Positions 39,495 through 64,000 of a stretch of 64,000 bases of DNA are shown piece by piece. The position numbers and the translations under genes were made by a program. Origin of the DNA: Cyanobacteria bacterium UBA4641 (GTDB lineage Bacteria; Cyanobacteriota; Vampirovibrionia; Gastranaerophilales; Gastranaerophilaceae); assembly GCA_002405805.1 (NCBI GenBank), contig DHMN01000028.1:4163-68162 (forward strand), read 5' to 3'. The notes below the pieces were generated by a model, which was not told the DNA's origin, made no database searches, and saw nothing but the letters and a program-made list of their open reading frames with translations. Positions within the stretch are counted from its first letter, which is position 1. Every line of letters begins with the position of its first letter.

Positions 39495-39528
39495 GCAAAA
39501 AATAATATTTACATGTTTTACTCTGAAT

Positions 39529-40521
39529 ATGCAAATATATTCAATACCTCAAAACAACTATTCTCAATACAAAACTCAGCCAAAACACGTAAATTTCAGA
39601 GGAATGACCTCAGAATTTGGCAAAGAACTTAAAACAGTAATTCAGCGTGGACAAGCTACAGACTCAGAACAAGCAACCCTTGTCGAACAATTGCGTCAAA
39701 TATTATCAAACCTGACACCTGACAAACAGTTAGGCGAAGGTGCTCACGGAATTGTTTACAAAATCGATGATGATTTTTGCTTAAAAGTTCCTCGCGGAAA
39801 TATGCCGATTGTAGACAAATTGCTAGAACTGCCATCTAACCTTTTTAAAGCTCTTAAAAATTATTATGGAAGTGCTGTTGCAAAATTCAACGACGTAACA
39901 ATCATGAAAAATGTTTCATCAGGTGGAGAACATATTCCTGTCGGTATTCCTGAAAAAATTGCAGTCAAAAACATTCACGCAGATAATATGACATACTATG
40001 AAATGTTCGCCCTTCCTCGAATTGCCGATATGCCACAGAAAAGTTTTGACGAAGTTGCAAAAGATTGTGCCGAATTAAATAAACTTGGAGATGGTAAATA
40101 TACATATAAATTTGATTACAAAAATCCAAATAACTTTGTAATAGTCGGAGATTCAATCAGAACAACAGATGATATTGAAAAAAGATTCGGCAACCGTCCA
40201 AATTCAATTGCAGATTTGCTGAACGTATTTATCAACACGACTTTTCTAAACTGTCGCGCAAATTATAGCCCAAGTGGCGAACCTTTACGCAGAAACTTGA
40301 TGGAAAAAATTATCCTTGCAGGTATGAAAAACGACTTACCGCTAACATCAGGTCTTGGGTCTGATGAAATTTTATGGTACACAATTGCAGATGATTTGTG
40401 TAAATTAAAAACTCCAACAAATGAAATTATGAAAAAACTAACAGAGTTAAAAACTGTTCCTGATGCGGAAAAACGAATAGAATTAACAAAAGAATACCTT
40501 GGAAAAATAATGAAAGACTAA
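39529..40521 (+). CDS. Protein kinase-like protein (atypical)
   Basis: Gly-loop plus Lys 'LGEGAHGIVYKIDDDFCLKVPRG'. Possible catalytic-loop analogue 'FDYKNPNNFVIVG'. No clear DFG or APE. Confidence 0.5.
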   Translation: MQIYSIPQNNYSQYKTQPKHVNFRGMTSEFGKELKTVIQRGQATDSEQATLVEQLRQILSNLTPDKQLGEGAHGIVYKIDDDFCLKVPRGNMPIVDKLLELPSNLFKALKNYYGSAVAKFNDVTIMKNVSSGGEHIPVGIPEKIAVKNIHADNMTYYEMFALPRIADMPQKSFDEVAKDCAELNKLGDGKYTYKFDYKNPNNFVIVGDSIRTTDDIEKRFGNRPNSIADLLNVFINTTFLNCRANYSPSGEPLRRNLMEKIILAGMKNDLPLTSGLGSDEILWYTIADDLCKLKTPTNEIMKKLTELKTVPDAEKRIELTKEYLGKIMKD

Positions 40522-40835
40522 ATTTTTAAGACTCTGGCAAATCTCAAAAGCCTTTGTTTGTCTTGAATATTCAAAGAATCGAATATTTCAACAATTTCAC
40601 TGCGCATATTTTCATCTGTTTCGATATGCTTGTAGTCAAAAAAGTCTTCAATGCTTATCCCCAGTTTTGCTGCAATTTTATCTAAATTAGAAAGTAATGG
40701 AAAATTTTTACCTGATTCAATTTTGCTGATAGATTGAGGTTCAATACCTGCAATTTCAGCCATTTTATCCTGTGTATAGCCAAACTTTTTTCTTATTTCT
40801 TTAAATCTTTTTCCAAAAACTTCTTTTGTATTCAT
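40518..40835 (-). CDS. XRE-family HTH transcriptional regulator
   Basis: 'FKEIRKKFGYTQDKMAEIAGIEPQSISKIESGKNFPLLSNLDKIAAKLGISIEDFF'. Start at ATG 40835; the tracked start is TTG at 40850. Confidence 0.85.
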   Translation of the reverse strand: MNTKEVFGKRFKEIRKKFGYTQDKMAEIAGIEPQSISKIESGKNFPLLSNLDKIAAKLGISIEDFFDYKHIETDENMRSEIVEIFDSLNIQDKQRLLRFARVLKI

Positions 40836-40966
40836 ATTTCCCCTCAACAAAATGTATCAATTATTTGTTAATAAATTAATACATTTATAGGTTAGTTTAT
40901 TGAAATTTTGAACGTTTGAATATAATATATAAATGTTATACTTTATTTTTTGGAGCTTTTGAACTT

Positions 40967-41785
40967 ATGAATAAAAATTTTTGTGCGACAAATGTAGATA
41001 CGCCACCAACAAAGGCGAAATTTGGTTTTACATTAGCAGAAAGTGCTACGCACGTAACTTTGCCACCAACATTGACTAAACTTGGATTTACACTTGCGGA
41101 GGTATTAATCACTCTTGGTGTGATTGGTGTAGTTGCTGCAATGACAATTCCGACATTGATGAGCGCTTATAATAGACATGTCGTAGAAACAAGATTATAT
41201 AAAATCCATTCAACTTTTATGCAAGGAATCAGAATGGCACAAGCTAATTCTGATTCAAATTTCACTGTGCAAAACCCTACAACCGGCAAAGAAGATGTAA
41301 ACGGATTTTCGTGGGAGAATAGCAAGCTTGTTTTTGATGAATATTTTGCACCAGTTTTCAAAATCTCTCACACATACCCTAAAAACACATTATTCAATGT
41401 ATATTCAACAGATGGGCAAGCAAGAGTTAATGGAGCAGGTGATACCAACACATATCAAATTGCACTCCTAGATGGAACAGTTCTGGGGTTCACTAAAGTT
41501 GGTGGTCAAAATACCAGATTTTATTTAGATATTACGATAAATCCGACAAAGAAAAAGTTACTTAGCGGACGCGATACGTTTTTTATTCAATATTCAGATG
41601 ATGGAGAAGGAAATTTTCAAATTTACAACCCTTATACTAAGTTGTATAGCGATGAAAAACTCAAAGAATACTGTACCTCACATGAATCAAGACCTGCATC
41701 ATCAATTTATCCATCAGCGTTTTGTACAGCTTTAATTGTAAAAAACAATTTCAAAATTCCATCTGACTATCCTATCAAATTCTAA
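40967..41785 (+). CDS. Prepilin-type N-terminal domain protein (pilin-like paralog 3) with a duplicated leader motif
   Basis: 'PPTKAKFGFTLAES..LPPTLTKLGFTLAEVLITLGVIGVVAAMTIP'. 'LSGRDTFFIQY'. C-terminal 'CTS...FCTALIVKNNFKIPSDYPIKF'. Start at the ATG with ggag; the tracked start is TTG at 40916. Confidence 0.8.
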   Translation: MNKNFCATNVDTPPTKAKFGFTLAESATHVTLPPTLTKLGFTLAEVLITLGVIGVVAAMTIPTLMSAYNRHVVETRLYKIHSTFMQGIRMAQANSDSNFTVQNPTTGKEDVNGFSWENSKLVFDEYFAPVFKISHTYPKNTLFNVYSTDGQARVNGAGDTNTYQIALLDGTVLGFTKVGGQNTRFYLDITINPTKKKLLSGRDTFFIQYSDDGEGNFQIYNPYTKLYSDEKLKEYCTSHESRPASSIYPSAFCTALIVKNNFKIPSDYPIKF

Positions 41786-43447: not shown

Positions 43448-44008
43448 TTACCTTGAAGATGAATTGTTGTAGTTTTTGTATCTATAACTCAAAATACTAT
43501 AACTTGAAACATCGGATGATGAATCGTCACTATAGAATACAGAGGTTTGAGTAGCTTTTTTGTAGTTTTCTTCATCTAACTTTTCTTGCTTGTTACAAGA
43601 ATAAGAAAATGCGGAAATCTCTGCACTTGTAACACGTCCGTCGTGATTTGTATCCATCTCATCAAAGTTTTCCAAAATTTTATTAACCATATCGGTTGAA
43701 TAAGCACCTGATGCTGCAAGTTGGGTCAACTCAGAACGAGAAACGCCTGATTGAGAAATCGTATTTGTCAAATTGCTCATCTCTTTTGCACTGATTACAC
43801 CATCACCATCTTTATCCAAAGTTGAAAAATTGTTCTGTAAATAAGCTGCAAAAGATTGATTCAATGTCAAATAATTTGAAGTATCGTTTCTTGCTGCCGT
43901 AATATTTTTATATGTAACTCCATCTTGCGGATAAAGTGAGGCAAGATAAGAATATGTATTTGTCAAATTTGATGAAATATTTGAAATAATTGATGCACCT
44001 GATGCCAT
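43448..44008 (-). CDS. EF-hand calcium-binding protein (two canonical loops), no signal peptide
   Basis: 'DKDGDGVISAKE' and 'DTNHDGRVTSAE' fit the 12-residue EF-hand loop D-x-[DN]-x-D-G-x-[IV]-x-x-x-E. Confidence 0.7.
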   Translation of the reverse strand: MASGASIISNISSNLTNTYSYLASLYPQDGVTYKNITAARNDTSNYLTLNQSFAAYLQNNFSTLDKDGDGVISAKEMSNLTNTISQSGVSRSELTQLAASGAYSTDMVNKILENFDEMDTNHDGRVTSAEISAFSYSCNKQEKLDEENYKKATQTSVFYSDDSSSDVSSYSILSYRYKNYNNSSSR

Positions 44009-44754: not shown

Positions 44755-46320
44755 ATGGAACTAATTTTATACATTATTTATTTATACTTGATTATTTATA
44801 CAATTTACCTGTTCATTTTGGCTATGCGTAACCTAAAGGACAGACCTTTTTCTATTGAAAGAAAATATTCAAAGTTTGATGATGTAAAAAGAAATTTTGC
44901 GGTTATTATTTATAGCCACAACCATAAAGAATGTCTTGAACAATTGGTTGAACAAATCAAAATGCAGGATTATCCGTTAGCTGATTTCAAAGTATATGCA
45001 ATTCTTGATGACTGCAATGACGGTTCTGACAAGTTATTTGAAAATGACAATTTCGTACATGTTTTAAATATTCAAGATGTTGGAACTTTGGGCAAAAATC
45101 AATCAATTTCTATGCTTTTAGAAGAATTGAAAAAAGACGACTCAATTGATGCTTATGTATTTATTGACGGAATCCGAAAAATTGATGCAGACTTTTTAAC
45201 CCTTGCAAATGCAGCTCTAAATAAGGCTGATGCCGTAACAGGCGAACTTAATATTAGCAGAGACAATTTGGATATCGTTGACCAAATCAAAGCAGTTCAT
45301 AAAAAATATCTTGCAAATTTTTTCAAACAATCAAGAACATTATTAGGATTAGCTACACAAGTAGATTCCGGATTATTTATTATAAAAAAATCTGTTCTTG
45401 ATGAGACCGAAGGAATTAATTTTAAAGATATCAACAGCGAACTTGAATTTAGCTTGTTGTTATCTCAAACAGGTCACAAATGCGTTTATAATCCGAATAT
45501 TCAATCTTACATCTTGGGTCAAGATTGCACATTCAAAAAGCCGAGATTAACAAAAAGATTCAATTTATTAAAAAATAATTTCAAAAACATCAAATCAATT
45601 AATTTTCCATTCATTGAACATGTTTGTTCTTTATTGAATCCTAATTGCTGGATGTTAATTGCAGCTTATGCCATTTTGATTGCATATTCTTACCATTGTC
45701 AATTTATTGTAAAATGCAACATGGTTATTTTCTCTGCAATCGTACTTATGGCAGTGTTTGGAATAAGCTTAATTAATGCAAAATTGAATATGAAAGAAAT
45801 CAGCCTTTTGATGTTGTACCCAATTTATTCAATTTGCCATATTATCAAAAACTTTCCACCGGTGAGAGTTTTATTGAAAAAACTTGGGGCAAACACAGAC
45901 AAAGAAGTTGATAAACTTGCAATTGATGTTATGGTTCAAACAAAACACGGTGACAGAGGCTGTAAATTAGAATTCATTTCAACTGAAAGTGGATTGTCAA
46001 AAATCCGATTTATTTATAAAAATAAAAAATACACAACATCAGCTCATCTTAGAATGATTGATGCTTTACAACAATTGAAATCAAAGATGGAAGATTACGG
46101 CTTGACTCTAAAAATTTGCAGCTGCTGTAAAAACTTCACCTCTCGCGTTGACGGTTCAACAAATATGCTAAAAGGAGAATGTCACAATGAATTTCCTAGC
46201 CCATTGTTAAACGAACCTCGTCCGACATTGATTTGGAACTCTTGTTCTAGTTTTGAACCTGCTCCAATCAACAATTTCATTGAAGAAATGGCACAAGAAG
46301 TCGAACGCCAACAAGATTAA
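44755..46320 (+). CDS. Membrane-bound family-2 glycosyltransferase-like protein with an extra C-terminal Cys-containing domain
   Basis: N-terminal TM, GT-A start 'FAVIIYSHNHKECLEQLVEQIKMQDYP', 'ILDDCNDGSD', 'FIDGIRKID', about 3 TM helices at residues 300-370, then a ~150-aa domain with 'CSCCKNF...GECHNEF...WNSCSSF'. Confidence 0.6.
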   Translation: MELILYIIYLYLIIYTIYLFILAMRNLKDRPFSIERKYSKFDDVKRNFAVIIYSHNHKECLEQLVEQIKMQDYPLADFKVYAILDDCNDGSDKLFENDNFVHVLNIQDVGTLGKNQSISMLLEELKKDDSIDAYVFIDGIRKIDADFLTLANAALNKADAVTGELNISRDNLDIVDQIKAVHKKYLANFFKQSRTLLGLATQVDSGLFIIKKSVLDETEGINFKDINSELEFSLLLSQTGHKCVYNPNIQSYILGQDCTFKKPRLTKRFNLLKNNFKNIKSINFPFIEHVCSLLNPNCWMLIAAYAILIAYSYHCQFIVKCNMVIFSAIVLMAVFGISLINAKLNMKEISLLMLYPIYSICHIIKNFPPVRVLLKKLGANTDKEVDKLAIDVMVQTKHGDRGCKLEFISTESGLSKIRFIYKNKKYTTSAHLRMIDALQQLKSKMEDYGLTLKICSCCKNFTSRVDGSTNMLKGECHNEFPSPLLNEPRPTLIWNSCSSFEPAPINNFIEEMAQEVERQQD

Positions 46321-46357
46321 TTTGAAATACCTCAAAATCGGAGTGTATAATAAAACT

Positions 46358-47518
46358 ATGAAGAAAATCCTGAGCTTTATAATTATGTTTACAATGATAT
46401 TTTCTAATGCGCTAATGGTTACTGCCGATGAGCCTTTAAAAGGTACGGTTTCAGAAACCGGACAATACAAAAATGACCAAAGTGACATTTTTACAGGCAA
46501 AGTCGAAACCCTTAACCGCAAAGAAATAATAAACATGACCGTTTCACAGGTTTTGGATTCGTCCATTTCCATTGAAGGGGATGAGTTTTTCGCCGAAGTT
46601 ACGGATGATGTTTATAGCAACAAAGGCATAATCATTCCAAAAGGAACACTTGCACACGGAAAACTTACAAACACAACAGCTCCGGGAAGAATGGGTAAAG
46701 AGGCTACGATGGATTTGTCTTTTGACTATTTAGTCACTCCTGATGGGCGCGAAATTCCGATAGAAGGAACAATGACAACAAAACTTCACCCAGTAACTCA
46801 AGGTGCTAAAATTGTTGCTCAAGATGTTGGCTATACTGTTGCAGGTGGTGCTGTAGGTGGTCTGATGGCACTAAATTGGCTTGGACTGGGGGCTGCAATT
46901 GCATCTCAAGGATATACATTAGCAGGCGGTGCGGCAGTAGGCGGTGTTGCAGGTTTGAGCGTTGCACTAATCAGAAAAGGCAACCACGTACTAATTGCTC
47001 CCGGAGATGAAATTAAGGTTAAAATAAACACTTCTGTTGATTTACCTGTATATAAAGAAGATGCACTTAAACAAGAAGAAGTTTTGTATAAAGGTTTAGA
47101 CATAAATATAAATAACATAAAACACGAAAAAGACCCATTTGGGGAGGTTAATACAATTACTTTGACCGTTTTGATATCAAATATGTCGGACAAAACACTT
47201 TCCGGCTTTGATATGGCATTGGTAAACGATTACAACGCAAAATTCAGCCCATCAATTTTTGGAAACACAAAATTGATGTTTCGCCAAATAAAACCTGGCG
47301 ACAAGCTGGTTGAAAATGTTTCATTTGCCGTTGATAATATCAACAGAAAATATTGGTTGACTTTTTATGACAGAAAAACCAATCAGGTAATAACAAAAAT
47401 TTCTGTCGATAATGCTTACAGAAATTTACCGGAAAAAGTTAAAAAGAAAAACGAAAAAATACGAACAAAAAAACGTAATTACAAAAAAGACGAAGACTTT
47501 ATGGATATGGATTTTTAG
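46358..47518 (+). CDS. Secreted protein with a TrbI/VirB10-like beta module, a glycine zipper and a C-terminal domain (module paralog B)
   Basis: Signal 'MKKILSFIIMFTMIFSNALMVTA'. 'VLDSSISIEGDEFFAEVTDDVYSNKGIIIPKGTLAHGKLTNTTAPGRMGKEATMDLSFDYLVTPDGREIPIEG' resembles the TrbI/VirB10 barrel pattern. 'GYTVAGGAVGGLMALNWLGLGAAIASQGYTLAGGAAVGGVAG'. 'LIAPGDEIKVKI'. Lys-rich tail. Confidence 0.6.
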   Translation: MKKILSFIIMFTMIFSNALMVTADEPLKGTVSETGQYKNDQSDIFTGKVETLNRKEIINMTVSQVLDSSISIEGDEFFAEVTDDVYSNKGIIIPKGTLAHGKLTNTTAPGRMGKEATMDLSFDYLVTPDGREIPIEGTMTTKLHPVTQGAKIVAQDVGYTVAGGAVGGLMALNWLGLGAAIASQGYTLAGGAAVGGVAGLSVALIRKGNHVLIAPGDEIKVKINTSVDLPVYKEDALKQEEVLYKGLDININNIKHEKDPFGEVNTITLTVLISNMSDKTLSGFDMALVNDYNAKFSPSIFGNTKLMFRQIKPGDKLVENVSFAVDNINRKYWLTFYDRKTNQVITKISVDNAYRNLPEKVKKKNEKIRTKKRNYKKDEDFMDMDF

Positions 47519-54537: not shown

Positions 54538-54554
54538 TTTCTAATGATATATTA

Positions 54555-54583
54555 TTGACAAACTTAAAGCGATATATTATACT
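54555..54583 (+). promoter_or_regulatory. Sigma-70-like promoter for pilin-like paralog 4, flanked by a 10-bp direct repeat
   Basis: ttgaca, 17 nt, tatact. gatatattat occurs at 54546-54555 and 54571-54580, overlapping the -35 flank and the -10. Confidence 0.5.
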
Positions 54584-54625
54584 TCTATTATTAGACATAA
54601 AGTATATAAATAAGTAGAGAAGATA

Positions 54626-55429
54626 ATGAGAATAATCAAATTTGTTGGTAAAAATTTACGTTGCGCATCTGTAAAAAATAAATCTCGCTTTGATTTTTCA
54701 CCAGTCTTCACAAGATTTGGTTTTACGTTGGCTGAGGTTTTAATCACTCTTGGAATAATCGGCATAGTTGCCGCAATGACAATTCCTGTATTGATTTCCA
54801 GCCATCAAAAACGAGAGATTGAAGCTAAATTAAAAGAGGATTTTTCTATTTTTAGCCAAGTTAATAAAATGATGATTTATAATGATGTTTCATTTGACTT
54901 TTCTGCAGCAGATGGTAGTTCGCAAGTTTTGAGAAATTGGCTCAATCTCAATATTTTCCCATATATGAAAGTTGCAAGAATTTGCAATGAACCTGAAAAA
55001 GGTTGCTTTAGTTCTGTTAATATGGCAATCAGACAGCTTAATGGCAGTTCTTTTGATGATTGTCCAAAAGGTGGCGGAGGCTGTGGCGGCGGTTGGGTTT
55101 CATTTGTTATGAACAATGGAACAAAAGTTGCGGTTGATGTTGGAAATAACAGCCAATTGAGAACTATTTATGGAGTAGATTCAGATGCTGAAACTTGTTT
55201 AAAAATGTATGTTGACGTAAACGGAGACAAAAAGCCAAACAAATTCGGAATTGACATATTTTTGATGACCTTTACGGAAGATGGTTTTGTTCCTGCAGGA
55301 TATTCAAAAACCGCAGATGAACTCAAAAGCAATTGTTCCCCAAAGCAAACAGGTTGGTGGTGTATGGCTAGAGTAAAAAATTCGAACTGGGAAATTCCTG
55401 ATGATGTTTGGGCAGTAAGGAACAAATAA
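54626..55429 (+). CDS. Prepilin-type N-terminal domain protein (pilin-like paralog 4)
   Basis: Long leader, then 'RFG|FTLAEVLITLGIIGIVAAMTIP'. 'VDVNGDKKPNKFGIDIF'. Gly/Cys patch 'CPKGGGGCGGGW'. C-terminal 'CSPKQTGWWCMARVKNSNWEIPDDVW'. Confidence 0.85.
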   Translation: MRIIKFVGKNLRCASVKNKSRFDFSPVFTRFGFTLAEVLITLGIIGIVAAMTIPVLISSHQKREIEAKLKEDFSIFSQVNKMMIYNDVSFDFSAADGSSQVLRNWLNLNIFPYMKVARICNEPEKGCFSSVNMAIRQLNGSSFDDCPKGGGGCGGGWVSFVMNNGTKVAVDVGNNSQLRTIYGVDSDAETCLKMYVDVNGDKKPNKFGIDIFLMTFTEDGFVPAGYSKTADELKSNCSPKQTGWWCMARVKNSNWEIPDDVWAVRNK

Positions 55430-55434
55430 TGACC

Positions 55435-57651: not shown

Positions 57652-60600
57652 ATGTGCGCAGAAAATGTCAAATTGAATCTGAACAAAGGTAAACTCGGTC
57701 AAGCTGATTTGAACCAAATCAAGGGCGGACTAAAACGTGAGCAAATCAAAGATAAAGCTATGCTTGCAATTTTTGACGCGTTAGATGACGGTAACCATGT
57801 TCTTGATGAAAAAGAGATTTCAAAATTGAAAACTCAATTACAAGAAGCTGCGAAAAACAGTAATCTTTCTAAAAATGAAGCTGAAAAATTTTTGAAAAAC
57901 TTGTTTGGTGATAAAAAAGATAAAAATATCACTAACGAAGATTTGTTCAAATTTATCAATACTCTGACCGATAACAGCAAAAATATTAAAAACTCAACCG
58001 CTACAAAAGAAAACGGACAAGACGTAATCACAACCGAATACAAAGACGGTTCTGTTGAAAAAATTTACCCTGACACAAAGAAAAAAGTCATAATCAAAGA
58101 CAACAAAACTTCTACTTATACAGCAGATAACACTCTTCAAAAAGAAGAATATTTTGACAAAGACGGAAATTCTGTTACTACAACTTTCACTGACGGCAAG
58201 CCGCAGAAAAAGACCGTTAAAACTCAAACAGAAACTTTGCACTACGAAGTTTCTGATAAAGGTGAAAAACTTGTAAAACGTGAAAATAATCAAAACAAAG
58301 CCACAACCGATTATGAATATGATGAAAAAGAAGGTACTGTTAATGAAACAGAACAAAATGGCAATGTAACAACTAAAAGAGTAAGACGCAACGGCAATGT
58401 TGAAACTCAAACTGCAGTAGAAAAGTTGGAAGATTCCACAGTAGAAACAGTTACAGATGCTAACGGTAATATTACCAAAACAACAGTAAATTCTGATGGC
58501 AAACGCATCAAACAAGAAAAAACAATCGACGGCAAAACTTATGTAGCCGAATACGATGGCAACGGTAACACAAAAGTTGTTGTACAAAACGGTGAAAGTA
58601 TTGCGCATCTTGCAAAAATCTTTGATGTTAAACAAGGTGACATCATTGAAGTAAATGAACCTGACGGCAAAGTTCATCAAAAAGGTTCTACAAAATTTTT
58701 CCTTGTTGGTGATACAGTTTTGATTCCAAAAGAATTGGAAGCCGATGATAAAAACTTAACCAATCGCAAAAGCAGTGCCGATACAATTGGCGACTACAAA
58801 GAAGATATGGCAGAAATCCGCCGTAAACAACAAGAACGTGCAGCTAGAGCTAGAGAAAAAGCGCAGGAAGCAAAAGCTCATGAAGCTAAACAAAAGAAAA
58901 AAGCCTCAAAACCAAGAGCAATAAGTTTCACTTGCAAACAAAAGAATTTCACAGAAGTTGCCAAACAAAATTTGGCAAGCCAAGGAGTTAAAAATCCGAC
59001 TAAAAAGCAATTAGAAGACAGAATTGCACAATTAAAGAAATTAAATCCAAACTTAAAAGACGGTCAAATTCAAGGTAAAAGAATTACTGTTCCGTGTTCG
59101 GAAGAAACATACAACAGGTTTGTCGGCAGACAAAAAGAAGTAACCGAAATCAACAAAAATATGCGCAACAACAGAACCGCAAAAGGTATCGCAAATAATT
59201 TATATAAAATTTGTGATGACAATGCTGCTGCGATAGATAAACCTGTATTTTGGAACGAATTGAAAAAGGTTAATAAAAATAACGTTGTGGCTGTCCTAGA
59301 TAACTATGATAAAGTTTTAGAAAAACACACAGGCGATTCATCTTTACTTGATACAATTTGTTCAGAAGTCGGAGCATCAAACACAAACAGACAAAAAGCA
59401 CTTAACCATATTTATAATTCATTGGAACAAGCTGCAAAAGAAGCAGGTGTTTCTCAAGCTGATTTAAAAAGTGCAAGAAAGAAATTTTCAACAAGTATGC
59501 AGCACGAATTTGACAAAATCGGTCGTATTGATACAAAAGAAATGGATAAAGCCGTAGACTTTTTGCGTGGCGCAACCGCAGCAGCAAAAGTTACTAAAGG
59601 TCAGGGTTCAATTTCTACAAGAGCTGCCATGAAATCTTTCTTGAATGGTGAAGATGGTTTGGTTGCACTGGATAAAGATGTTCAAAAACAATACAAAGAT
59701 GCAAGAGATAAAGAAGGCTGGGTTGCTAAAACAGGTGACTGGGTTTGCGGATTATTCGGCTGTACAACTATTGCCGATATGGACAAAAAGCTTGGCAAAC
59801 ACGCAGGTGATGTGAAGAAACTTGTAGCTGCCGCAAATAAAAACGATGAAGCAACTTTTAAAAAATTATATAAACAAACTTTCGGAATTGATTTTAATCC
59901 AAAAATGATTCAAGCTCGCCAAACAGCAAGAATCAATTACGAATCTGCTGCTGCATTCAATGCATCATACAAAGCCTTTGCAGGTTTGGAGTCAAAGACA
60001 AAGAATCTGAATTACCAATCTTTGCGTAACGAATTGAAAAAATCTTTCAAATACTCAGATTCTGATATTGATACATTGATTAAATCTTACGCACAAAGCA
60101 AAGGTATGGACTCAGCATCCCAAGCTGATAAAAAGTATGTTTTGGATTCCTTTATCAAAGAATCTAAACAACAGTATTTAAAAGAATTTCAAAAATTGTC
60201 TAAAGGTAAAACTTTAGAGCAAATGGGCAAAGATGTTGATTTGTTGACAAAAAGCGCTTACGGTACAAATGATATCGTCAAAGACGTTATCCAATTCAAC
60301 GAAAACCAACAAATGACCGAAATGGTGACTTCCGCAGCTTTTGAAATTGCAGGTACTATTGCATTACAATTTGTTCCGGGGCTAGGACAAATGGCAGCCG
60401 CAAAACTTGCGGTAAGTGCGGCTAAATGGGGTGCTCGCGGTGTAAAAATTGCAACTTACGCAACTAAAGCTGCAAAAGCAATGAAAACCGTATCAACTGC
60501 AATGAATGCAACTAAGAAAGCTAAAATCGTAACTCAAATGGCTTCAGCAGGCGTTGCAACAGCAGCAGTTAATTTGTCAAATAAAAAAGACGTCAAAGAA

Positions 60601-63600
60601 ACAATGAGAAAAACTTTGATGAATATGTCATTTGCAGGCGTTGGTGCATCTTCAAGCATCTTGGCTCCAAAATTGATGCAAGCATTTGGTATAACAAATA
60701 AAGCTTTGGCAACAGAAGTTGCAGAAGAAATCATCAATTGCGCAGGTTCTTACGGCGTAACAAAACTTGCAGGAGACGATTACGGCAAAAACGATGCATT
60801 TATAGACTTTGCAAGCGGCTTGTTAATGTCAAGAATTTCTCACGTAAAAATGCACAAAGGTACAAAAGTTGAGACTCCAACCCCAAAACCTGAAGTACCG
60901 ACCAAACCAGAAATTCCAACATCAAAGCCTGAAGTCCCAACAACTCCTGAAAAACCAATCAAAACAGATAAACCAATTGTAGAACACCAAGGCGCAGTTA
61001 AACCTGACACCGAGACAAAACCGTCCGGCGAAGCAAATAACTCTAAGAAAGTTCCTGACGATTTTAAAAAGTCAAACGAAAAACTTATTGATGAAAAGGA
61101 TTTGAAAAACAAGAAAAAAACAGTTACCCCTGAAGAGGCTGACAAATTTAAAGAAGCTGCACCAAGCACCAAACCTCCTGTAGCTGATGAAAAACCTTCA
61201 CTCCAACATCCGCAAGAAAAGAAATTCAACGGAATAAACGGCGAAGAACTGAAATTTGAAGTTATCAGTGAAACCGATTTTCCAAAAGGTAAAAAGTCTT
61301 ATTTAACAAAAGATGATAAAAAGATTTTTGTAGATGCTGACGGCAAAATTATATCTGTAAAAGATTACAATGCAGGTACAATCAAAGCTTTCGATTACCA
61401 CAACGCAGGTGATGCTCCATCAGGTTACACTTTGGTAAACAAAAAACAACAAATTATCAGACAAGTAGAATCAAAAGTTGATACTAATGTAACTAAAAAC
61501 TACGAAACAGGCGTAGAAACTATCACATCAACCAAAGACGGCTCAGTAATTACAGAAAGATATATGTCACTTTCTGAATACCCTGCTAATGCCCCAATTC
61601 CTGATGCAGCTAAATTTTCAAAAAACCTGAAAGCTCAAATTGATGAATGTACAGATATCAACAAGTTGAACAAATTGAAAGATGAATACAACATGTACAA
61701 CTCTCAATACGGTACTGCTGACGGTTCATTGTTCCAAGCTTTGCAAGATAAAGCATCTGCATTGCAAGGAACAGCAAAACCGACTCCACACAAACCATTA
61801 TCAAATCTTGTAACAAGTTCAACATTAGATAATGCACTAGAAAATTTGAATATGAAAAAATATGGCAAAAAAGGTTTGCCGTTGAAATATTCTCATGATG
61901 AAATGTTGAAAGACTTGAAAGAATCTCTAATGGCTCTTCCTTATTCTGAACGTTCTGCTATTATGAATAAATTCAACATTCATACAATTGGAGATGAGTT
62001 GTCAGATATTCCAAAACTTTCTCAAATTCCAAGCACACCTAATGAAGAAAAGATTTTGAATATCTTAAATAAATATTCAAAACAAAATTCTTTGCAAATT
62101 GCTGACCCTGCATTGAAAGCTGAATTAGAAAACTTTATCAAAGATGTACCTGAATTTACATTTATGATTGGTAAAAAACAAAACGGCGTTCATGCATACA
62201 GCTTAGATTCTCACACTATTCAAAACTTACAAAAAGCTTTGAAATACGCAGCAGATGCCAATATTTCCGATGAACAAAAAGAAATTTTGAAAATGAGTAT
62301 TTTACTCCACGATATGGGTAAACAATACAAAGGCGCATCAGTATCAGACACAGGGCACGCTGCACTAAGCAAACAGTATGCGGAAAACATTTTGGACAGA
62401 TTCAACTATTCAACCGAAACAAAAAATAAAATCTTGAATTTGATTGAAAATCACCACTGGTTCAAAGATTTTAACAAAGGTAAGCTAAGTGCTGACCAAG
62501 TTGTAAAAATGTTTGGCGATGATTTGACTCTTGCTCAAATTATGGCTAAATCTGATTTGGAAAGCGTTAGCGATACATTCCACTTAGAAATCTTAGAACC
62601 AGGTAAAAAACTTTCTCAAGCAGAGTTTGAGACCAAATTCCAAGAAAAAATGGATAAGATTTCCAGCAAAATTACACCTGAAGTCTTGGGTGAAGAATTA
62701 CCAATCGGTCAAATGGACAAATACAAACCTTACTATTTGGACAAAAGCAAAATCGACAAATTGATTTTGGGCAAAGGTGTTGAACTTGATATGAACGACC
62801 CTAAACTAAAACAATTGATGAATGATTTAAAAGAGGGCGAAAGCTTTGCTATTGGCTGTACTGACCCACATGGAAATTATCCGGATGTAAAATATCAAAT
62901 CGGCAAATATGCTGATGGCGTTGGCTCTCACCACGTAATTATTACTAAAAAGCACGGTGAATTTGTAATTGAAGTTCACAAAGATGCTGCTGTTATGAAA
63001 GATATTCCGACAGCTCACAACTCAGACCCTGTAATTGCAAATAAAATCGAACAAATTAAGAAAAAAGCAACTAATATTACATCTGAAACATTTAATATCG
63101 ACGGTAAAAATGTTCCGTTTGAAATTTTACACGGAACAAAAAGCGGTTCAAACAAAGGTTACTATGTAATAAATAAACAAACCGGTGAATTATTCTATGC
63201 AAAATTTGGCGGAGCACAAGGCAAAACAGAACTTTTGGCTAACAAATTGTACGCTATGGCAGGCTTAGGCACTCCTGAAATGAGTTCTTTCAAAGCCACT
63301 GACGGCACTGTGGGAACTTTGAGCAAATACATGCCTGACTTGACAAGTGTAACTCACGCAACTACAAAGGCTAACGAAGGTTTTGGTATGGATGTATTGT
63401 TGGCAAACTGGGATGTTGTCGGTATGAGCAACGACAATATGCTAAAAACTGCTGACGGCAAAATCATCAGACTTGATGCAGGCGGTACATTTGATTATCG
63501 TGCACAAGGCAAAAACAAACCTTATACATCAATTCCGATGGAATTTGTAACATTGATGGATGCAAACATCAACTCAAAATCAGCACAAATTTTCAGCAAA

Positions 63601-64000
63601 ATGACTCGTGATGATTTGATTAACTCATTGAACAAAGTTGCAAATTTAAAAACAACAGAAATCACAAATCTTCTTGATAGTATGGGTTTGTCTCACTACA
63701 AAGAACCTTTGCTAAACAGAAAGAAATTCTTGAAATCTTTGCTTGAAGAAATCAAAGCAAATCCGCAAGGCAGTGAATCTACTCTTGAATACATGCACAA
63801 TATGATGAACAAATCATTAGACAAGGCTATTTCTTCTGCTAAATCAGCAGCTGACTTGCAAGATATCAAACAAGCTTTGACTTATGTAAACAATCCAAAA
63901 GCAAAACAACAATTACTTGATAATATTGCAATCAAAGAAAAAGATTTGGCTGCCTCAGCTCCTGCTCCAAAAATCTTGTCAGAAGTTCAGGTTCAAAATC
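57652..64000 (+). CDS. Giant multidomain protein (over 2100 aa, 3' end beyond the window): beta-hairpin repeats, LysM-like x2, hydrophobic/Ala-Gly-rich segment, Pro-rich linker, HD domain, PI3/4-kinase-like domain
   Basis: I translated it by hand and found no stop from ATG 57652 to nt 64000. Absent from the ORF track because it has no stop in the window. LysM-like 'VQNGESIAHLAKIFDVKQGDIIEVN..VGDTVLIP'. 'TPTPKPEVPTKPEIPTSKPEVPTTPEKP'. HD 'HAYSLDSH..LLHDMGK..GHAALS..IENHHW'. Kinase-like 'GTKSGSNKGYYVINKQTGELFYAKFGG..DVLLANWDVVGMSNDNML..IRLDAGGTFDY'. Confidence 0.85.
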   Translation, partial: MCAENVKLNLNKGKLGQADLNQIKGGLKREQIKDKAMLAIFDALDDGNHVLDEKEISKLKTQLQEAAKNSNLSKNEAEKFLKNLFGDKKDKNITNEDLFKFINTLTDNSKNIKNSTATKENGQDVITTEYKDGSVEKIYPDTKKKVIIKDNKTSTYTADNTLQKEEYFDKDGNSVTTTFTDGKPQKKTVKTQTETLHYEVSDKGEKLVKRENNQNKATTDYEYDEKEGTVNETEQNGNVTTKRVRRNGNVETQTAVEKLEDSTVETVTDANGNITKTTVNSDGKRIKQEKTIDGKTYVAEYDGNGNTKVVVQNGESIAHLAKIFDVKQGDIIEVNEPDGKVHQKGSTKFFLVGDTVLIPKELEADDKNLTNRKSSADTIGDYKEDMAEIRRKQQERAARAREKAQEAKAHEAKQKKKASKPRAISFTCKQKNFTEVAKQNLASQGVKNPTKKQLEDRIAQLKKLNPNLKDGQIQGKRITVPCSEETYNRFVGRQKEVTEINKNMRNNRTAKGIANNLYKICDDNAAAIDKPVFWNELKKVNKNNVVAVLDNYDKVLEKHTGDSSLLDTICSEVGASNTNRQKALNHIYNSLEQAAKEAGVSQADLKSARKKFSTSMQHEFDKIGRIDTKEMDKAVDFLRGATAAAKVTKGQGSISTRAAMKSFLNGEDGLVALDKDVQKQYKDARDKEGWVAKTGDWVCGLFGCTTIADMDKKLGKHAGDVKKLVAAANKNDEATFKKLYKQTFGIDFNPKMIQARQTARINYESAAAFNASYKAFAGLESKTKNLNYQSLRNELKKSFKYSDSDIDTLIKSYAQSKGMDSASQADKKYVLDSFIKESKQQYLKEFQKLSKGKTLEQMGKDVDLLTKSAYGTNDIVKDVIQFNENQQMTEMVTSAAFEIAGTIALQFVPGLGQMAAAKLAVSAAKWGARGVKIATYATKAAKAMKTVSTAMNATKKAKIVTQMASAGVATAAVNLSNKKDVKETMRKTLMNMSFAGVGASSSILAPKLMQAFGITNKALATEVAEEIINCAGSYGVTKLAGDDYGKNDAFIDFASGLLMSRISHVKMHKGTKVETPTPKPEVPTKPEIPTSKPEVPTTPEKPIKTDKPIVEHQGAVKPDTETKPSGEANNSKKVPDDFKKSNEKLIDEKDLKNKKKTVTPEEADKFKEAAPSTKPPVADEKPSLQHPQEKKFNGINGEELKFEVISETDFPKGKKSYLTKDDKKIFVDADGKIISVKDYNAGTIKAFDYHNAGDAPSGYTLVNKKQQIIRQVESKVDTNVTKNYETGVETITSTKDGSVITERYMSLSEYPANAPIPDAAKFSKNLKAQIDECTDINKLNKLKDEYNMYNSQYGTADGSLFQALQDKASALQGTAKPTPHKPLSNLVTSSTLDNALENLNMKKYGKKGLPLKYSHDEMLKDLKESLMALPYSERSAIMNKFNIHTIGDELSDIPKLSQIPSTPNEEKILNILNKYSKQNSLQIADPALKAELENFIKDVPEFTFMIGKKQNGVHAYSLDSHTIQNLQKALKYAADANISDEQKEILKMSILLHDMGKQYKGASVSDTGHAALSKQYAENILDRFNYSTETKNKILNLIENHHWFKDFNKGKLSADQVVKMFGDDLTLAQIMAKSDLESVSDTFHLEILEPGKKLSQAEFETKFQEKMDKISSKITPEVLGEELPIGQMDKYKPYYLDKSKIDKLILGKGVELDMNDPKLKQLMNDLKEGESFAIGCTDPHGNYPDVKYQIGKYADGVGSHHVIITKKHGEFVIEVHKDAAVMKDIPTAHNSDPVIANKIEQIKKKATNITSETFNIDGKNVPFEILHGTKSGSNKGYYVINKQTGELFYAKFGGAQGKTELLANKLYAMAGLGTPEMSSFKATDGTVGTLSKYMPDLTSVTHATTKANEGFGMDVLLANWDVVGMSNDNMLKTADGKIIRLDAGGTFDYRAQGKNKPYTSIPMEFVTLMDANINSKSAQIFSKMTRDDLINSLNKVANLKTTEITNLLDSMGLSHYKEPLLNRKKFLKSLLEEIKANPQGSESTLEYMHNMMNKSLDKAISSAKSAADLQDIKQALTYVNNPKAKQQLLDNIAIKEKDLAASAPAPKILSEVQVQN

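What the first reader, a model, noticed from the sequence alone, without database searches (positions are those of the whole stretch)
57652..64000. Giant (over 2100 aa, incomplete) multidomain ORF missed by the ORF track
I translated the frame by hand from ATG 57652 and found no stop up to the window end. All tracked minus-strand ORFs inside it (57834-58043, 57994-58680, 59402-59587, 60534-60737, 60840-61229, 62220-62405, 62827-63018) are antisense shadows. The segments, in order, are: an N-terminal helical region; short beta-hairpin repeats ('TTEYKDGSVEKIY', 'EEYFDKDGNSVTTTF', 'TDYEYDEKEGTV', 'AEYDGNGNTKV', which are YD/MORN-like); two LysM-like segments (~58576-58731 and ~58921-59097); a long helical region; a hydrophobic Ala/Gly-rich stretch (~60320-60840, possibly membrane-inserting); a Pro-rich linker (60862-60960); an HD phosphohydrolase-like domain (~62190-62600); and a PI3/4-kinase-like domain (~63090-63560). 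No signal peptide is obvious. The architecture resembles large secreted effectors or toxins rather than any housekeeping protein.
Basis: partly seen in the sequence, partly recalled or inferred. Interest (0 to 1): 0.72.

Follow-up and report, generated by a model that had tools for sequence, protein, structure and literature searches.

The report
Giant swappable-warhead toxin gene
The window ends inside a real gene of about 2,400 codons from an uncultured human-gut relative of cyanobacteria; the gene joins a conserved front half to exchangeable enzyme "warheads" that travel with matching protective genes, which is how bacterial polymorphic toxins are built, but the front half matches no known delivery domain.

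Summary
Bases 57652-64000 (+) form an unbroken 2,116-codon frame under strong purifying selection (dN/dS 0.08). It is the 5' 88% of a 2,413-aa gene of a Gastranaerophilales (Melainabacteria) gut bacterium.

- EF-hand-like N-terminus.
- A sheet of beta-hairpin repeats about 200 aa long.
- One LysM domain. The second is LysM-like in predicted topology only.
- A 400-aa helical domain.
- A hydrophobic Ala/Gly region.
- A Pro-rich linker.
- An HD domain.
- A protein-kinase-like fold, closest to CtkA and HipA. It is not a demonstrable PI3/4-kinase.

Beyond the window, the ortholog adds an R-S-ExE ADP-ribosyltransferase (ART), two small paralogous genes and a convergent ADP-ribosylglycohydrolase (ARH).

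At the same chromosomal locus, related strains keep the first ~1,105 aa at about 90% identity. Exactly after the Pro-rich linker they replace everything downstream with a calpain-like protease plus a different 112-aa gene. A second, nested swap replaces only the ART and the two small genes.

This is a polymorphic toxin-immunity locus. The constant module is found in 741 clusters, almost all from Gastranaerophilales genomes, and has no signal peptide and no known trafficking domain. The export route and the target are unknown. I rate it a new variant of a known kind.

The parts
57652..64000 (+). 5' 2,116 codons (about 88%) of a 2,413-codon polymorphic toxin gene. The frame is open to the window end.
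   Evidence: dN/dS 0.077.
57652..57981 (+). N-terminal EF-hand-like helical domain (aa 1-110), with no signal peptide.
   Evidence: AF2 helices at aa 35-108. EF-hand_7 scores only 14.7 bits here, but EF-hand families are significant in 8 of 20 relatives. Hydropathy maximum 0.1 in the first 60 aa.
57982..58569 (+). Sheet of about 20 antiparallel strands built from beta-hairpin repeats (aa 111-306).
   Evidence: AF2 pLDDT about 90. Foldseek matches OspA 2fkj at E=3.8e-5, with weaker Rhs and teneurin matches, and MORN-repeat proteins in BFVD.
58570..58731 (+). LysM domain 1 (aa 307-360). It follows the family's most conserved motif, YDGNGNT..VQNGES.
   Evidence: Pfam LysM 21.5 bits against a cut-off of 20.9 on the isolated segment. 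LysM is significant in 12 of 20 and 10 of 26 relatives. Conserved columns.
58915..59097 (+). Beta-alpha-alpha-beta unit (aa 422-482), LysM-like in predicted topology only.
   Evidence: AF2 secondary structure. No Pfam hit. hhalign against LysM 1 gives 1.6% probability.
59101..60312 (+). All-helical domain (aa 484-887), the first part of the conserved 'module B'. No known relative.
   Evidence: AF2 pLDDT about 80-90. No Pfam, PHROG or PDB sequence match, and no convincing Foldseek match among the 50 hits listed in each of PDB and BFVD. The module B profile finds 741 cluster representatives.
60313..60861 (+). Hydrophobic Ala/Gly-rich helical region (aa 888-1070), including the hairpin ...IALQFVPGLGQMAAAKLAV.... 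It is the most constrained part of the gene.
   Evidence: Hydropathy peaks at aa 890-923 and 957-975. dN/dS 0.029. AF2 pLDDT below 50. Conserved across module B relatives.
60862..60963 (+). Pro-rich (K/T-P-E-x-P) linker (aa 1071-1104). The outer recombination breakpoint lies at its 3' end, at about base 60964.
   Evidence: Sequence. DNA homology to the calpain allele L003 stops at 60964. dN/dS 0.28. Linker length varies between alleles.
60964..61818 (+). First part of the exchangeable C-terminal region (aa 1105-1389): a charged stretch, a second set of beta-hairpin repeats, then helices. No family assigned.
61819..62751 (+). HD-domain module (aa 1390-1700). Pfam core aa 1519-1606. Invariant H1514, H1553-D1554, G1568-H1569, N1600-H1601, W1603-F1604 and D1635.
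   Evidence: Pfam HD 28.8-32.7 bits, above the cut-off of 22. Weak matches to Cas3/Cas10 HD nuclease profiles. Motif conservation, including distant P0067, P0078 and P0079. Positions.
62929..63999 (+). Protein-kinase-like domain (aa 1760-2116). Invariant GSNxG 1832-36, K1851, E1860, D1914, NWD 1919-21, D1928 and DxGG 1942-45.
   Evidence: Alignment A1. AF2 pLDDT 82.6, pTM 0.80. All listed Foldseek PDB hits are kinase-fold proteins; the best TM-scores are CtkA 3akl (0.43), HipA 4pu4 and Vps34 2x6h. No Pfam or PDB sequence hit.
63990..64000 (+). Approximate position of the inner (nested) recombination breakpoint, at the kinase/ART boundary. Beyond it, orthologs carry the ART domain, two small paralogous genes and a convergent ADP-ribosylglycohydrolase.
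   Evidence: Window-L006 homology ends at 63993. L005-L006 homology stops at L005 15553 and resumes at 16962. ART Pfam 66.6 bits. ARH 252 bits.

Best explanation
The ORF is the toxin gene of a polymorphic toxin-immunity locus in a gut Gastranaerophilales bacterium.

Shown:
- A constant N-terminal ~1,105 aa: EF-hand-like domain, beta-hairpin sheet, LysM, a 400-aa helical domain, a highly constrained hydrophobic helical region, and a Pro-rich linker.
- This constant part is joined to an exchangeable C-terminal 'warhead'. In this strain the warhead has three apparently intact enzyme domains: an HD domain with weak resemblance to Cas3/Cas10 nuclease HD domains, a CtkA/HipA-like kinase-fold domain, and (just past the window end, in the ortholog) an R-S-ExE ADP-ribosyltransferase (ART).
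- The warhead travels with its own downstream genes: two small paralogous ORFs and an ADP-ribosylglycohydrolase (ARH).
- Recombination at the end of the Pro-rich linker replaces the whole warhead and its partner genes with a calpain-like protease and a 112-aa gene.
- A nested recombination at the kinase/ART boundary replaces only the ART and the two small genes, and keeps the ARH.

Inferred:
- The protein leaves the cell by a route that does not use Sec.
- LysM and the beta-sheet hold it on peptidoglycan or a cell surface.
- The hydrophobic helical region inserts into a membrane and helps carry the warhead, held away from it by the Pro-rich spacer, into a neighbouring cell.
- There the three enzymes damage nucleic acid, phosphorylate targets and ADP-ribosylate targets.
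- The producer and its kin are protected because the ARH removes the ADP-ribose and the small co-varying proteins neutralise their cognate domain.
- The target is more likely another bacterium than a eukaryotic cell.
For: Gene integrity and ortholog:
- Intact and under purifying selection.
- The full-length ortholog P0001 is 97% identical and 2,413 aa.

Whole-warhead swap at one locus:
- L003 and L004 share the flanks: RadA upstream; DciA, DHH and BrkB downstream.
- They hold an allele about 90% identical over aa 1-~1,105, then a calpain-like C-terminus (Pfam Peptidase_C2) and a 112-aa ORF, with no ARH.
- DNA homology stops at window base 60964 and resumes at DciA.

Nested swap:
- Between L005 and L006 the HD and kinase domains are 93% identical, but the ART is 37%, and the small ORFs are 57% and 47%.
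- The ARH stays at 98%. The breakpoints are at L005 15553 and 16962.

Co-variation across species-level genomes:
- 6 of 6 loci with HD, kinase and ART have the ARH (78-100% identity) and the small-ORF pair.
- At least 11 calpain-type loci have an s112 homolog.

Catalytic residues:
- Invariant R, S and ExE in the ART.
- Invariant HD motifs.
- Conserved kinase-like K, E, D..N and DxGG, on a kinase fold.

Family breadth:
- Relatives carry ADPRT, AvrB, calpain, lipase, FHA with RamC_N, DnaJ, ASXH or HD domains behind the same N-terminal module.
- The module B profile finds 741 clusters.

Literature:
- These features match the published definition of polymorphic toxins and the strict association of Imm-ARG with R-S-E ARTs (PMC3482391).
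- Tre1/Tri1 is a worked example (PMC8120803).
Against: - No signal peptide and no recognised trafficking domain (PAAR, VgrG, LXG, TPS, RHS, MuF and the like) was found by Pfam, NCBIfam or PHROGs. No secretion system is encoded within about 20 kb. Export is therefore unproven.
- The ARH is convergent, not co-directional as classical immunity genes are.
- The small ORFs match no known immunity family and could be chaperones or adaptors.
- The detected warhead repertoire contains no nuclease, deaminase or cell-wall hydrolase family typical of interbacterial toxins. It looks more like repertoires of eukaryote-directed effectors.
- The ART, the small ORFs and the ARH lie outside this window. They are inferred from a 96-97% identical genome.
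- No toxicity or immunity experiment exists.
Confidence: 0.65

Rival explanations
1. It is a eukaryote-directed multi-effector toxin, comparable in logic to MARTX or large clostridial toxins. The protein would be delivered into host epithelial cells or gut protists and fungi. The ARH and the small ORFs would serve only to protect the producer from its own enzymes, or as chaperones, and not as immunity in bacterial warfare.
For: - The warhead repertoire across the family is effector-like: AvrB_AvrC, calpain-type protease, ASXH, DnaJ, FHA with a RamC_N kinase-like domain, C3/VIP2-type ADPRT and lipase.
- The best structural match of the kinase-like domain is H. pylori CtkA. That CtkA is secreted is my own knowledge.
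- EF-hands suggest folding or activation by calcium.
- The sister lineage Vampirovibrio preys on a eukaryotic alga (PMC4451040).
- No classical interbacterial toxin domain was detected.
Against: - Partner genes co-vary tightly with each warhead, including a nested swap of the ART with its two small genes. This is typical of toxin-immunity pairs.
- PMC3482391 notes that one eukaryote-directed toxin class (Tox-HDC) typically lacks immunity genes.
- Imm-ARG is described as strictly associated with polymorphic R-S-E ART toxins.
- HD nucleases, HipA-type kinases and Tre1-type ARTs all have bacterial targets (own knowledge).
- LysM binds peptidoglycan.
Confidence: 0.22
2. It is an intracellular conflict or defence system: the giant protein stays in the cell. 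It would act as a sensor-effector for abortive infection or as a toxin-antitoxin module, with the HD, kinase and ART domains as suicide effectors and the ARH as antitoxin.
For: - No signal peptide.
- HD, kinase-like and ART domains, and ART-ARH pairs, also occur in anti-phage and TA systems (PMC11618068 and PMC11833690, listed).
- The HD domain matches Cas3 and Cas10 HD profiles in PADLOC at E=3e-6 to 7e-4.
Against: - Apart from the generic HD match, no PADLOC model matches any part of the protein or its partner genes.
- LysM, EF-hand, a single-layer beta-sheet and a Pro-rich spacer are extracytoplasmic or surface features.
- Swapping C-terminal cassettes on a constant N-terminal stalk is the polymorphic-toxin pattern.
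- The locus lies among housekeeping genes, not in a defence island.
Confidence: 0.07
3. It is a non-toxic giant cell-envelope protein, such as an adhesin or a wall-associated multi-enzyme scaffold. Its variable C-termini would reflect niche adaptation, and the ARH would be a DraG-like regulator.
For: - LysM, a repeat sheet and a Pro-rich spacer resemble wall-anchored surface proteins.
- SLH-domain and glucosaminidase genes lie nearby.
Against: - The C-terminal domains belong to toxin or effector enzyme classes and keep intact catalytic motifs.
- Partner genes specific to each cassette co-vary with them.
- No adhesin family matches.
Confidence: 0.05

Closest known systems
Polymorphic toxin systems (Zhang, de Souza, Anantharaman, Iyer & Aravind 2012, PMC3482391), such as CdiA-CT/CdiI, Rhs, LXG and MafB
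   Same: - A constant N-terminal body with a variable C-terminal toxin.
- A single recombination event replaces the toxin tip together with its downstream partner gene.
- Peptidoglycan-binding domains such as LysM are used as accessory adhesion modules.
- An R-S-E ART is paired with an ADP-ribosylglycohydrolase (Imm-ARG).
   Different: - The constant body has no recognised trafficking domain: no signal peptide, TPS, PAAR, VgrG, LXG, WXG, RHS core or MuF.
- Its core is a helical-plus-hydrophobic module found here almost only in Gastranaerophilales.
- The warhead is a three-enzyme array of about 1,300 aa rather than a single domain of 100-300 aa.
- Swaps are nested, either the whole array or the ART alone.
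- No nuclease, deaminase or cell-wall hydrolase family typical of interbacterial toxins was detected in the relatives sampled (the HD domain has only a weak Cas3/Cas10-type resemblance).
Tre1-Tri1 of Serratia proteamaculans (a secreted ART effector with a DraG-like bifunctional immunity protein)
   Same: An R-S-E ADP-ribosyltransferase toxin encoded next to a DraG-family ADP-ribosylhydrolase. The hydrolase is far more conserved than the toxin (78-98% against 37-49% identity), as expected for an enzyme that gives broad protection.
   Different: - In Tri1, one protein both occludes the active site and hydrolyses the modification. Here the hydrolase is a separate, convergent gene that survives ART swaps.
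- Two small paralogous ORFs co-vary with the ART and may provide the specific, binding-type protection. This is inferred.
- No T6SS context.
- The ART is the last of three enzyme domains on a 2,413-aa protein.
MARTX toxins and large clostridial toxins (multi-effector, self-translocating toxins)
   Same: - Very large single polypeptides.
- Several enzymatic effector domains in tandem, exchanged between strains.
- An internal hydrophobic helical region that could act in translocation.
- No classical N-terminal signal peptide (true of MARTX).
   Different: - No RTX-type repeats, no cysteine protease or autoprocessing domain, and no glucosyltransferase or CROP modules were detected.
- The effectors sit at the C-terminus rather than between repeat blocks.
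- Cognate downstream protective genes are present.
HipA and H. pylori CtkA atypical Ser/Thr kinases (protein-kinase-like superfamily)
   Same: They are the best structural matches of the aa 1793-2103 model (Foldseek probability 1.0). A glycine-rich loop, a Lys, a Glu, a D..N catalytic stretch and a DxG metal-binding motif are conserved.
   Different: - TM-scores are only 0.33-0.43.
- There is no sequence-level match to Pfam or PDB.
- The catalytic motif is NWDxxG...D(N), with DAGG in place of DFG.
- The domain recurs as an independent cassette in other family members (P0045, P0046, P0054, P0087).

Membership tests
Polymorphic toxin system (PMC3482391) | A multidomain protein with a constant N-terminal region and a C-terminal domain or domains of a toxin enzyme class. 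| tested here: met
   N-terminal aa 1-1105 are shared at about 90% identity with the calpain alleles and at 25-60% with many relatives. The C-terminal HD, kinase-like and ART domains keep intact motifs.
Polymorphic toxin system (PMC3482391) | The C-terminal toxin region is replaced between strains or species while the N-terminal body and the locus are kept. | tested here: met
   Same flanking genes. Homology stops at window base 60964 and resumes at DciA. Nested ART swap. A second locus type holds toxin genes of 1,489-2,623 aa.
Polymorphic toxin system (PMC3482391) | A cognate downstream gene or genes co-vary with the toxin domain (toxin-immunity cassette). | tested here: met
   The ARH and the s63/s102 pair occur with all 6 HD-kinase-ART loci. 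An s112 homolog occurs with at least 11 calpain loci. Only co-variation is shown; protective function is untested.
Polymorphic toxin system (PMC3482391) | A recognised N-terminal trafficking domain or signal (T2SS, T5SS, T6SS, T7SS, PVC, MuF and so on). | tested here: not met
   No signal peptide. No trafficking family in Pfam, NCBIfam or PHROGs. No secretion genes nearby.
Polymorphic toxin system (PMC3482391) | Demonstrated toxicity and cognate immunity. | not testable with these tools
   Needs expression and competition experiments.
R-S-E ADP-ribosyltransferase with Imm-ARG/Tri1-type hydrolase | The R, S-x-S and ExE catalytic motif in the ART. | tested here: met
   Pfam ADPrib_exo_Tox 66.6 bits. 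Invariant R.EG, F.S and E.E..QKDS in 13 orthologs at 37-92% identity. The domain lies beyond the window, in the 97% ortholog.
R-S-E ADP-ribosyltransferase with Imm-ARG/Tri1-type hydrolase | An adjacent DraG-family ADP-ribosylglycohydrolase. | tested here: met
   PF03747 at 252 bits covering 286 of 287 profile positions, 0.5 kb downstream and convergent. Present at 6 of 6 species-level ART loci.
   No Pfam hit at E<=10. No PDB sequence hit. The motifs are NWDxxG..DN and DAGG. Vps34 ranks only 45th in Foldseek.
Protein-kinase-like superfamily | A bilobal kinase fold with a Gly-rich loop, a Lys-Glu pair, a catalytic Asp/Asn and a metal-binding Asp. | tested here: met
   AF2 pLDDT 82.6. All listed Foldseek hits are kinase-fold proteins, with CtkA and HipA at probability 1.0. 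Invariant residues. TM-scores are low (0.43 or less), so placement within the superfamily is uncertain.
HD-domain superfamily | The H...HD...D metal-binding motif and a profile match above the Pfam cut-off. | tested here: met
   PF01966 28.8-32.7 bits against a cut-off of 22. Invariant H, HD, GH, NH.WF and D. The Cas3-HD equivalog is below its cut-off (23.9 against 43.45).
LysM | A profile match with the beta-alpha-alpha-beta fold. | tested here: inconclusive
   First copy: 21.5 bits against 20.9 on the isolated segment but 15.2 on the whole protein; relatives are significant; the fold agrees. Second copy: topology only, with hhalign at 1.6%.
Rhs/YD-repeat toxins | A long YD-repeat shell, an RHS core and aspartyl autoprotease motifs. 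| tested here: not met
   No RHS_repeat or RHS-core Pfam hit. The beta-region is only about 200 aa and best matches the single-layer sheet of OspA; Rhs hits are weak (TM 0.06).
MARTX / large clostridial toxins | RTX-type repeats or a TcdA/B delivery domain, plus a cysteine protease autoprocessing domain. | tested here: not met
   None detected by Pfam or NCBIfam.

The most novel reading that the evidence does not exclude
The constant front half is a previously undescribed, self-contained export and translocation device. Its core is the ~590-aa helical-plus-hydrophobic 'module B', which occurs in 741 protein clusters at 50% identity. None of the 28 N-termini inspected carries a signal peptide. 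Module B would define a new trafficking class of polymorphic toxins in a diderm gut lineage related to cyanobacteria.

Two further possibilities follow. Export might run through the flagellar-type export genes (flhB, fliI) that most Gastranaerophilales keep without having flagella (preprint 10.64898/2026.04.24.720558). The effector-like warheads (AvrB, calpain, ASXH, DnaJ, FHA-kinase, C3-type ART) might be aimed at eukaryotic cells of the gut, whether host or protists, rather than at bacteria.

A narrower variant concerns the fixed HD, kinase and ART triad. The three domains might cooperate on one substrate, for example with ADP-ribosylation followed by phosphodiester processing as in Legionella SidE, instead of acting as three independent toxins.
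Probability: 0.2. Interest if true: 0.85.

Novelty: new variant of a known kind. Interest (0 to 1): 0.62.

Why it matters
Gastranaerophilales are uncultured, non-photosynthetic relatives of cyanobacteria. They are common in human guts, especially in non-industrialised populations, and in other animal guts. Almost nothing is known about how they interact with other cells.

This locus shows that they carry a large and diversifying arsenal of giant toxins. The constant module alone occurs in 741 clusters at 50% identity. These toxins exchange enzyme warheads and matching protective genes at fixed chromosomal sites.

What this gives:
- The first concrete handle on antagonism or host interaction in this lineage.
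- A delivery module with no known relative and no known secretion route.
- A natural example in which the two protective functions that Tri1 combines in one protein appear to be split. A conserved hydrolase survives toxin swaps, while small proteins are exchanged with the toxin.
- Several candidate new toxin-immunity pairs to test, including a calpain-like protease with a 112-aa partner and a CtkA/HipA-like kinase cassette.

Tried and rejected
- **Known trafficking or toxin-delivery domains in the N-terminal 1,105 aa.** Pfam on the whole protein and on nine pieces at E<=10, NCBIfam, PHROGs and PADLOC gave only LysM, weak EF-hand hits and chance-level hits such as TMP_N at E=0.034 and TraG_N at E=0.031. 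I rejected a phage tape-measure or tail origin.
- **Fold search of the N-terminal model.** Searches against PDB and BFVD were dominated by the beta-sheet region (OspA, MORN). Among the 50 hits listed from each library, nothing convincing matched the helical domain. The hydrophobic region was not modelled (pLDDT below 50).
- **PDB sequence and profile searches.** The kinase-like domain, the HD module, the ART and module B gave no significant hits.
- **A secretion system near the gene.** Within about 20 kb there are only housekeeping genes, two type-IV-pilin-like ORFs and a sub-threshold TrbI-like hit. Clustering the neighbours across 81 loci found no recurrent secretion gene. The recurring neighbours reflect shared synteny or an abundant pilin-like paralog family.
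- **Second LysM as a true LysM.** Profile-profile comparison failed.
- **Taxonomy of distant module B proteins.** The cluster look-up returned no names.
- **Literature.** Searches for any description of toxins, effectors or giant proteins in Melainabacteria, Gastranaerophilales or Vampirovibrionia found nothing relevant.
- **First genome scan.** The scan with the full-length alignment failed because no stretch was conserved enough. I repeated it with the LysM-region alignment.
- **Pseudogene or chimera.** Rejected on dN/dS, many intact orthologs and collinearity with independent assemblies.

Full report

Translating window 57652-64000 on the + strand gives 2,116 codons without a stop, in DNA of 35-37% GC. 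The ORF track did not list it because the ORF lister omits frames that run off an end (tool description). Nothing about the gene itself explains the omission.

A protein search found P0001, a 2,413-aa protein that is 97% identical over all 2,116 residues and begins with the same MCAENV... start. It also found about 30 full-length orthologs at 51-91% identity.

Against an ortholog with 89% nucleotide identity (L006), dN/dS is 0.077 overall. The lowest value, 0.029, is in the hydrophobic region. The highest, 0.28, is in the Pro-rich linker. The frame is therefore a functional gene, not a pseudogene or an assembly chimera.

The largest antisense ORF (57994-58680) has 1-6 stops in orthologs, and several of the short ones are also interrupted.

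**2. Anatomy inside the window**

I modelled aa 1-1105 with AlphaFold2 on a 49-sequence alignment (mean pLDDT 72). The model shows the following.

- **aa 35-108:** a helical domain. It is only weakly EF-hand-like here (14.7 bits). EF-hand families are significant in 8 of 20 relatives.
- **aa 112-310:** an antiparallel sheet of about 20 strands built from hairpin repeats, with pLDDT near 90. Foldseek matches it to the single-layer sheet of OspA (E=3.8e-5), weakly to Rhs and teneurin shells, and to MORN-repeat proteins in the viral library.
- **aa 307-358:** a LysM domain. Pfam scores it 21.5 bits against a cut-off of 20.9 when scanned alone. LysM is significant in 12 of 20 and 10 of 26 relatives. 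It follows the family's most conserved motif, YDGNGNT..VQNGES.
- **aa 375-418:** one long helix.
- **aa 422-482:** a second beta-alpha-alpha-beta unit. It has LysM topology, but there is no Pfam hit and profile-profile comparison with the first copy gives 1.6% probability.
- **aa 484-887:** an all-helical domain with pLDDT 80-90. It has no sequence match in Pfam, PHROGs or PDB, and no convincing match among the listed Foldseek hits.
- **aa 888-1105:** not modelled (pLDDT below 50). This stretch holds the Ala/Gly-rich hydrophobic helices, with hydropathy peaks at aa 890-923 and 957-975, and the Pro-rich linker at aa 1071-1104.

There is no N-terminal signal peptide.

After the linker:

- **aa 1105-1389:** a region with no family assignment that contains further hairpin repeats.
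- **aa 1390-1700:** the HD module. Pfam places the HD core at aa 1519-1606 with 28.8-32.7 bits, above the cut-off of 22. The metal-binding residues H, HD, GH, NH.WF and D are invariant even in distant relatives. Cas3/Cas10-type HD nuclease profiles match weakly.
- **aa ~1793-2103:** It has no Pfam or PDB sequence match. A 13-sequence alignment shows invariant GSNxG, K1851, E1860, D1914, NWD 1919-21, D1928 and DxGG 1942-45. The AF2 model is confident (pLDDT 82.6, pTM 0.80). All listed Foldseek PDB hits are kinase-fold proteins. The best TM-scores are H. pylori CtkA (0.43), HipA and, lower in the list, the PI3-kinase Vps34.

My conclusion on this last domain is that it is an atypical member of the protein-kinase-like superfamily. 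PI3/4-kinase membership is not supported.

**3. What lies beyond the window**

The full-length ortholog continues for about 300 residues. Scanned alone, this stretch matches ADPrib_exo_Tox at 66.6 bits. Thirteen orthologs at 37-92% identity keep an invariant R.EG, F.S and E.E..QKDS, which is the R-S-ExE signature.

On the 171-kb contig of that genome (GCA_902495705.1, MGYG-HGUT-04473), the gene is followed by a 63-aa ORF and a 102-aa ORF. A convergent 358-aa ADP-ribosylglycohydrolase comes next (PF03747, 252 bits). The two small ORFs are paralogs that share a 42-residue C-terminal domain.

Upstream lies RadA on the opposite strand. Downstream lie DciA, a DHH phosphoesterase and BrkB, all housekeeping genes.

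**4. The decisive evidence: cassette exchange at a fixed locus**

Fifteen protein clusters (P0030-P0044) are 88-93% identical to the query, but only over its first ~1,100-1,190 residues. They are 1,514-1,618 aa long.

One of them, P0033, lies in Hadza gut assemblies between the same RadA and DciA, DHH and BrkB genes. Its C-terminus is a calpain-type cysteine protease (Peptidase_C2). It is followed by a single 112-aa ORF, and there is no ARH.

At the DNA level, the window and that allele align continuously at 88% from base 50895 to base 60964, which is the last codons of the Pro-rich linker. Homology then stops. Between the two complete loci it resumes exactly at DciA.

So a 5.6-kb cassette is allelic to a 1.9-kb cassette:

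- The 5.6-kb cassette holds the HD, kinase and ART domains, the two small genes and the ARH.
- The 1.9-kb cassette holds the calpain domain and the 112-aa gene.

A second, nested exchange is visible between two species-level genomes (L005 and L006). Homology at 89% runs up to the kinase/ART boundary (L005 15553, about the position of the window end) and resumes at the 3' end of the ARH gene (16962). In between, the ART is only 37% identical and the small ORFs 57% and 47%. The HD and kinase domains are 93% identical and the ARH 98%.

Across the GTDB representative genomes:

- All six loci with HD, kinase and ART carry the ARH (78-100%) and the small-ORF pair.
- At least eleven loci with a calpain-type domain carry a homolog of the 112-aa gene.

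**5. The family**

A profile of aa 484-1075 ('module B') was searched against 1.84 billion cluster representatives. It finds 741 proteins at E<=1e-3 and 253 at E<=1e-30. Many lack the EF-hand, sheet and LysM part. None of 28 inspected N-termini has a signal peptide.

Behind module B, relatives carry ADPRT, AvrB_AvrC, calpain, lipase_3 or alpha/beta-hydrolase, FHA with a RamC_N kinase-like domain, DnaJ, ASXH, Peptidase_C39-like or HD domains.

The kinase-like and HD modules also recur on their own in other architectures.

A scan of one genome per species found 107 relatives. Almost all are in MAGs labelled Gastranaerophilales or Melainabacteria from human, ruminant, rabbit and chicken guts. The few other labels (Muribaculaceae, Fusobacterium, 'Brachyspira sp. 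CAG:484') look like mislabelling or bin contamination.

A second type of conserved locus, with a putative cation-diffusion-facilitator transporter gene and an AlkD-like gene downstream (named from sequence inspection only), holds family members of 1,489-2,623 aa.

**6. Interpretation**

These are the defining properties of polymorphic toxin systems as set out by Zhang et al. 2012. There is a constant N-terminal body. The C-terminal toxin is replaced by recombination. The replacement brings its own downstream partner gene (PMC3482391).

That paper also reports that an ADP-ribosylglycohydrolase immunity protein (Imm-ARG) associates strictly with R-S-E ART toxins. Tre1/Tri1 is the experimentally studied case. 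There, one protein both occludes the toxin's active site and reverses the modification (PMC8120803).

Here the two roles appear to be split. The hydrolase is conserved and survives ART swaps. The two small paralogs are exchanged together with the ART. This split is my inference from co-variation only.

**How the protein would work (inferred, not shown)**

- It is exported without Sec.
- LysM and the sheet attach it to peptidoglycan or a cell surface.
- The highly constrained hydrophobic helices insert into a membrane and help move the warhead, with the Pro-rich segment acting as a spacer.
- Three enzymes then act in the target. Each class has a bacterial-target precedent: HD nucleases, HipA-type kinases and Tre1-type ARTs. 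This last point rests partly on my own knowledge.

**7. What does not fit, and the rival explanations**

- No known trafficking domain or nearby secretion system was found.
- The ARH is convergent rather than co-directional.
- The small ORFs match no immunity family.
- The detected warhead repertoire contains none of the nuclease, deaminase or cell-wall hydrolase families usual in interbacterial toxins. It looks more like effector sets aimed at eukaryotes.

I therefore keep a eukaryote-directed reading at about 0.2. An intracellular defence or TA reading is at about 0.07, because PADLOC matches only the generic HD domain. A non-toxic envelope protein is at about 0.05.

A 2026 preprint notes that most Gastranaerophilales retain flhB, fliI and flgG without complete flagella, and postulates that these genes serve secretion (10.64898/2026.04.24.720558). 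That makes them a candidate export route. I did not test it.

**8. Novelty and verdict**

I found no description of this family or of any toxin system in Melainabacteria. The only name any source gives a relative is 'hypothetical protein'.

The kind of system is known: a polymorphic toxin with immunity genes, including Imm-ARG. The new elements are:

- the constant module and its unknown export route;
- the three-enzyme warhead with nested exchange;
- the apparent split of hydrolase-type and binding-type protection;
- the lineage.

I rate it a new variant of a known kind, with interest 0.62.

Noticed in passing
window 43451-44008 (-): A stand-alone 186-aa protein with a clear EF-hand pair (Pfam EF-hand_7 2.7e-11, EF-hand_5 1.4e-10). 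The same calcium-binding theme appears at the N-terminus of the giant toxin family.
   Followed up: no
window 54554-55434 (ORF 54626-55429, +): An 881-bp segment that is absent from the 96-97%-identical genome L001 but present in L003. It carries a 267-aa type-IV-pilin-like ORF (N_methyl 21.5 bits). Homologs of this ORF lie within about 1-10 kb of giant toxin genes in 14 of 81 loci. Whether that is a functional link or just an abundant paralog family is unknown.
   Followed up: partly
window 44755-47518 (+): A 521-aa ORF with no family overlaps the start of a 421-aa ORF that has a sub-threshold TrbI/VirB10-like match (25.4 bits against a cut-off of 35). This is the only hint of a secretion-type component in the neighbourhood.
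   Followed up: partly
window 38616-41785 (+): Three consecutive ORFs of 289-330 aa with no Pfam family. The third has a weak prepilin N-methylation motif (18.8 bits).
   Followed up: no
L023, L041, L042, L047, L048, L051, L052 (giant gene end plus 3-55 bp): A second conserved chromosomal locus type, with a convergent putative cation-diffusion-facilitator transporter gene and an AlkD-like gene downstream (both named from sequence inspection only, not from a family search). It holds family members of very different lengths (1,489-2,623 aa), which suggests the same cassette exchange at another site.
   Followed up: partly
P0001 (L001 16328-17239): A whole-protein hmmscan of the 2,413-aa ortholog does not report the ADP-ribosyltransferase domain at E<=0.001. 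The isolated 304 aa score 66.6 bits. Domain content of very long proteins is therefore under-reported by whole-protein scans, including the precomputed Pfam lists.
   Followed up: yes
L083 18608-19678 (-): An ADP-ribosylglycohydrolase homolog (68% identity) lies downstream of a family member in which tblastn finds no ART, HD or kinase domain. This could be a divergent ART or an orphan immunity gene.
   Followed up: no
L020, L022, L023, L026, L047, L054, L059, L084: Contigs carrying family members are labelled Muribaculaceae, Heliobacteriaceae, Brachyspira sp. CAG:484, Clostridium sp., Acutalibacteraceae, Bacteroidaceae or Fusobacterium sp. These are most likely mislabelled or contaminated bins of Gastranaerophilales, not true occurrences in those taxa.
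   Followed up: no
P0034 against P0031 (linker after aa ~1070): The Pro-rich linker varies greatly in length between otherwise near-identical calpain alleles: about 30 aa against about 130 aa of KP(E/D)xP repeats. This fits a repeat-driven recombination or slippage hot spot at the boundary between the constant and variable parts.
   Followed up: partly
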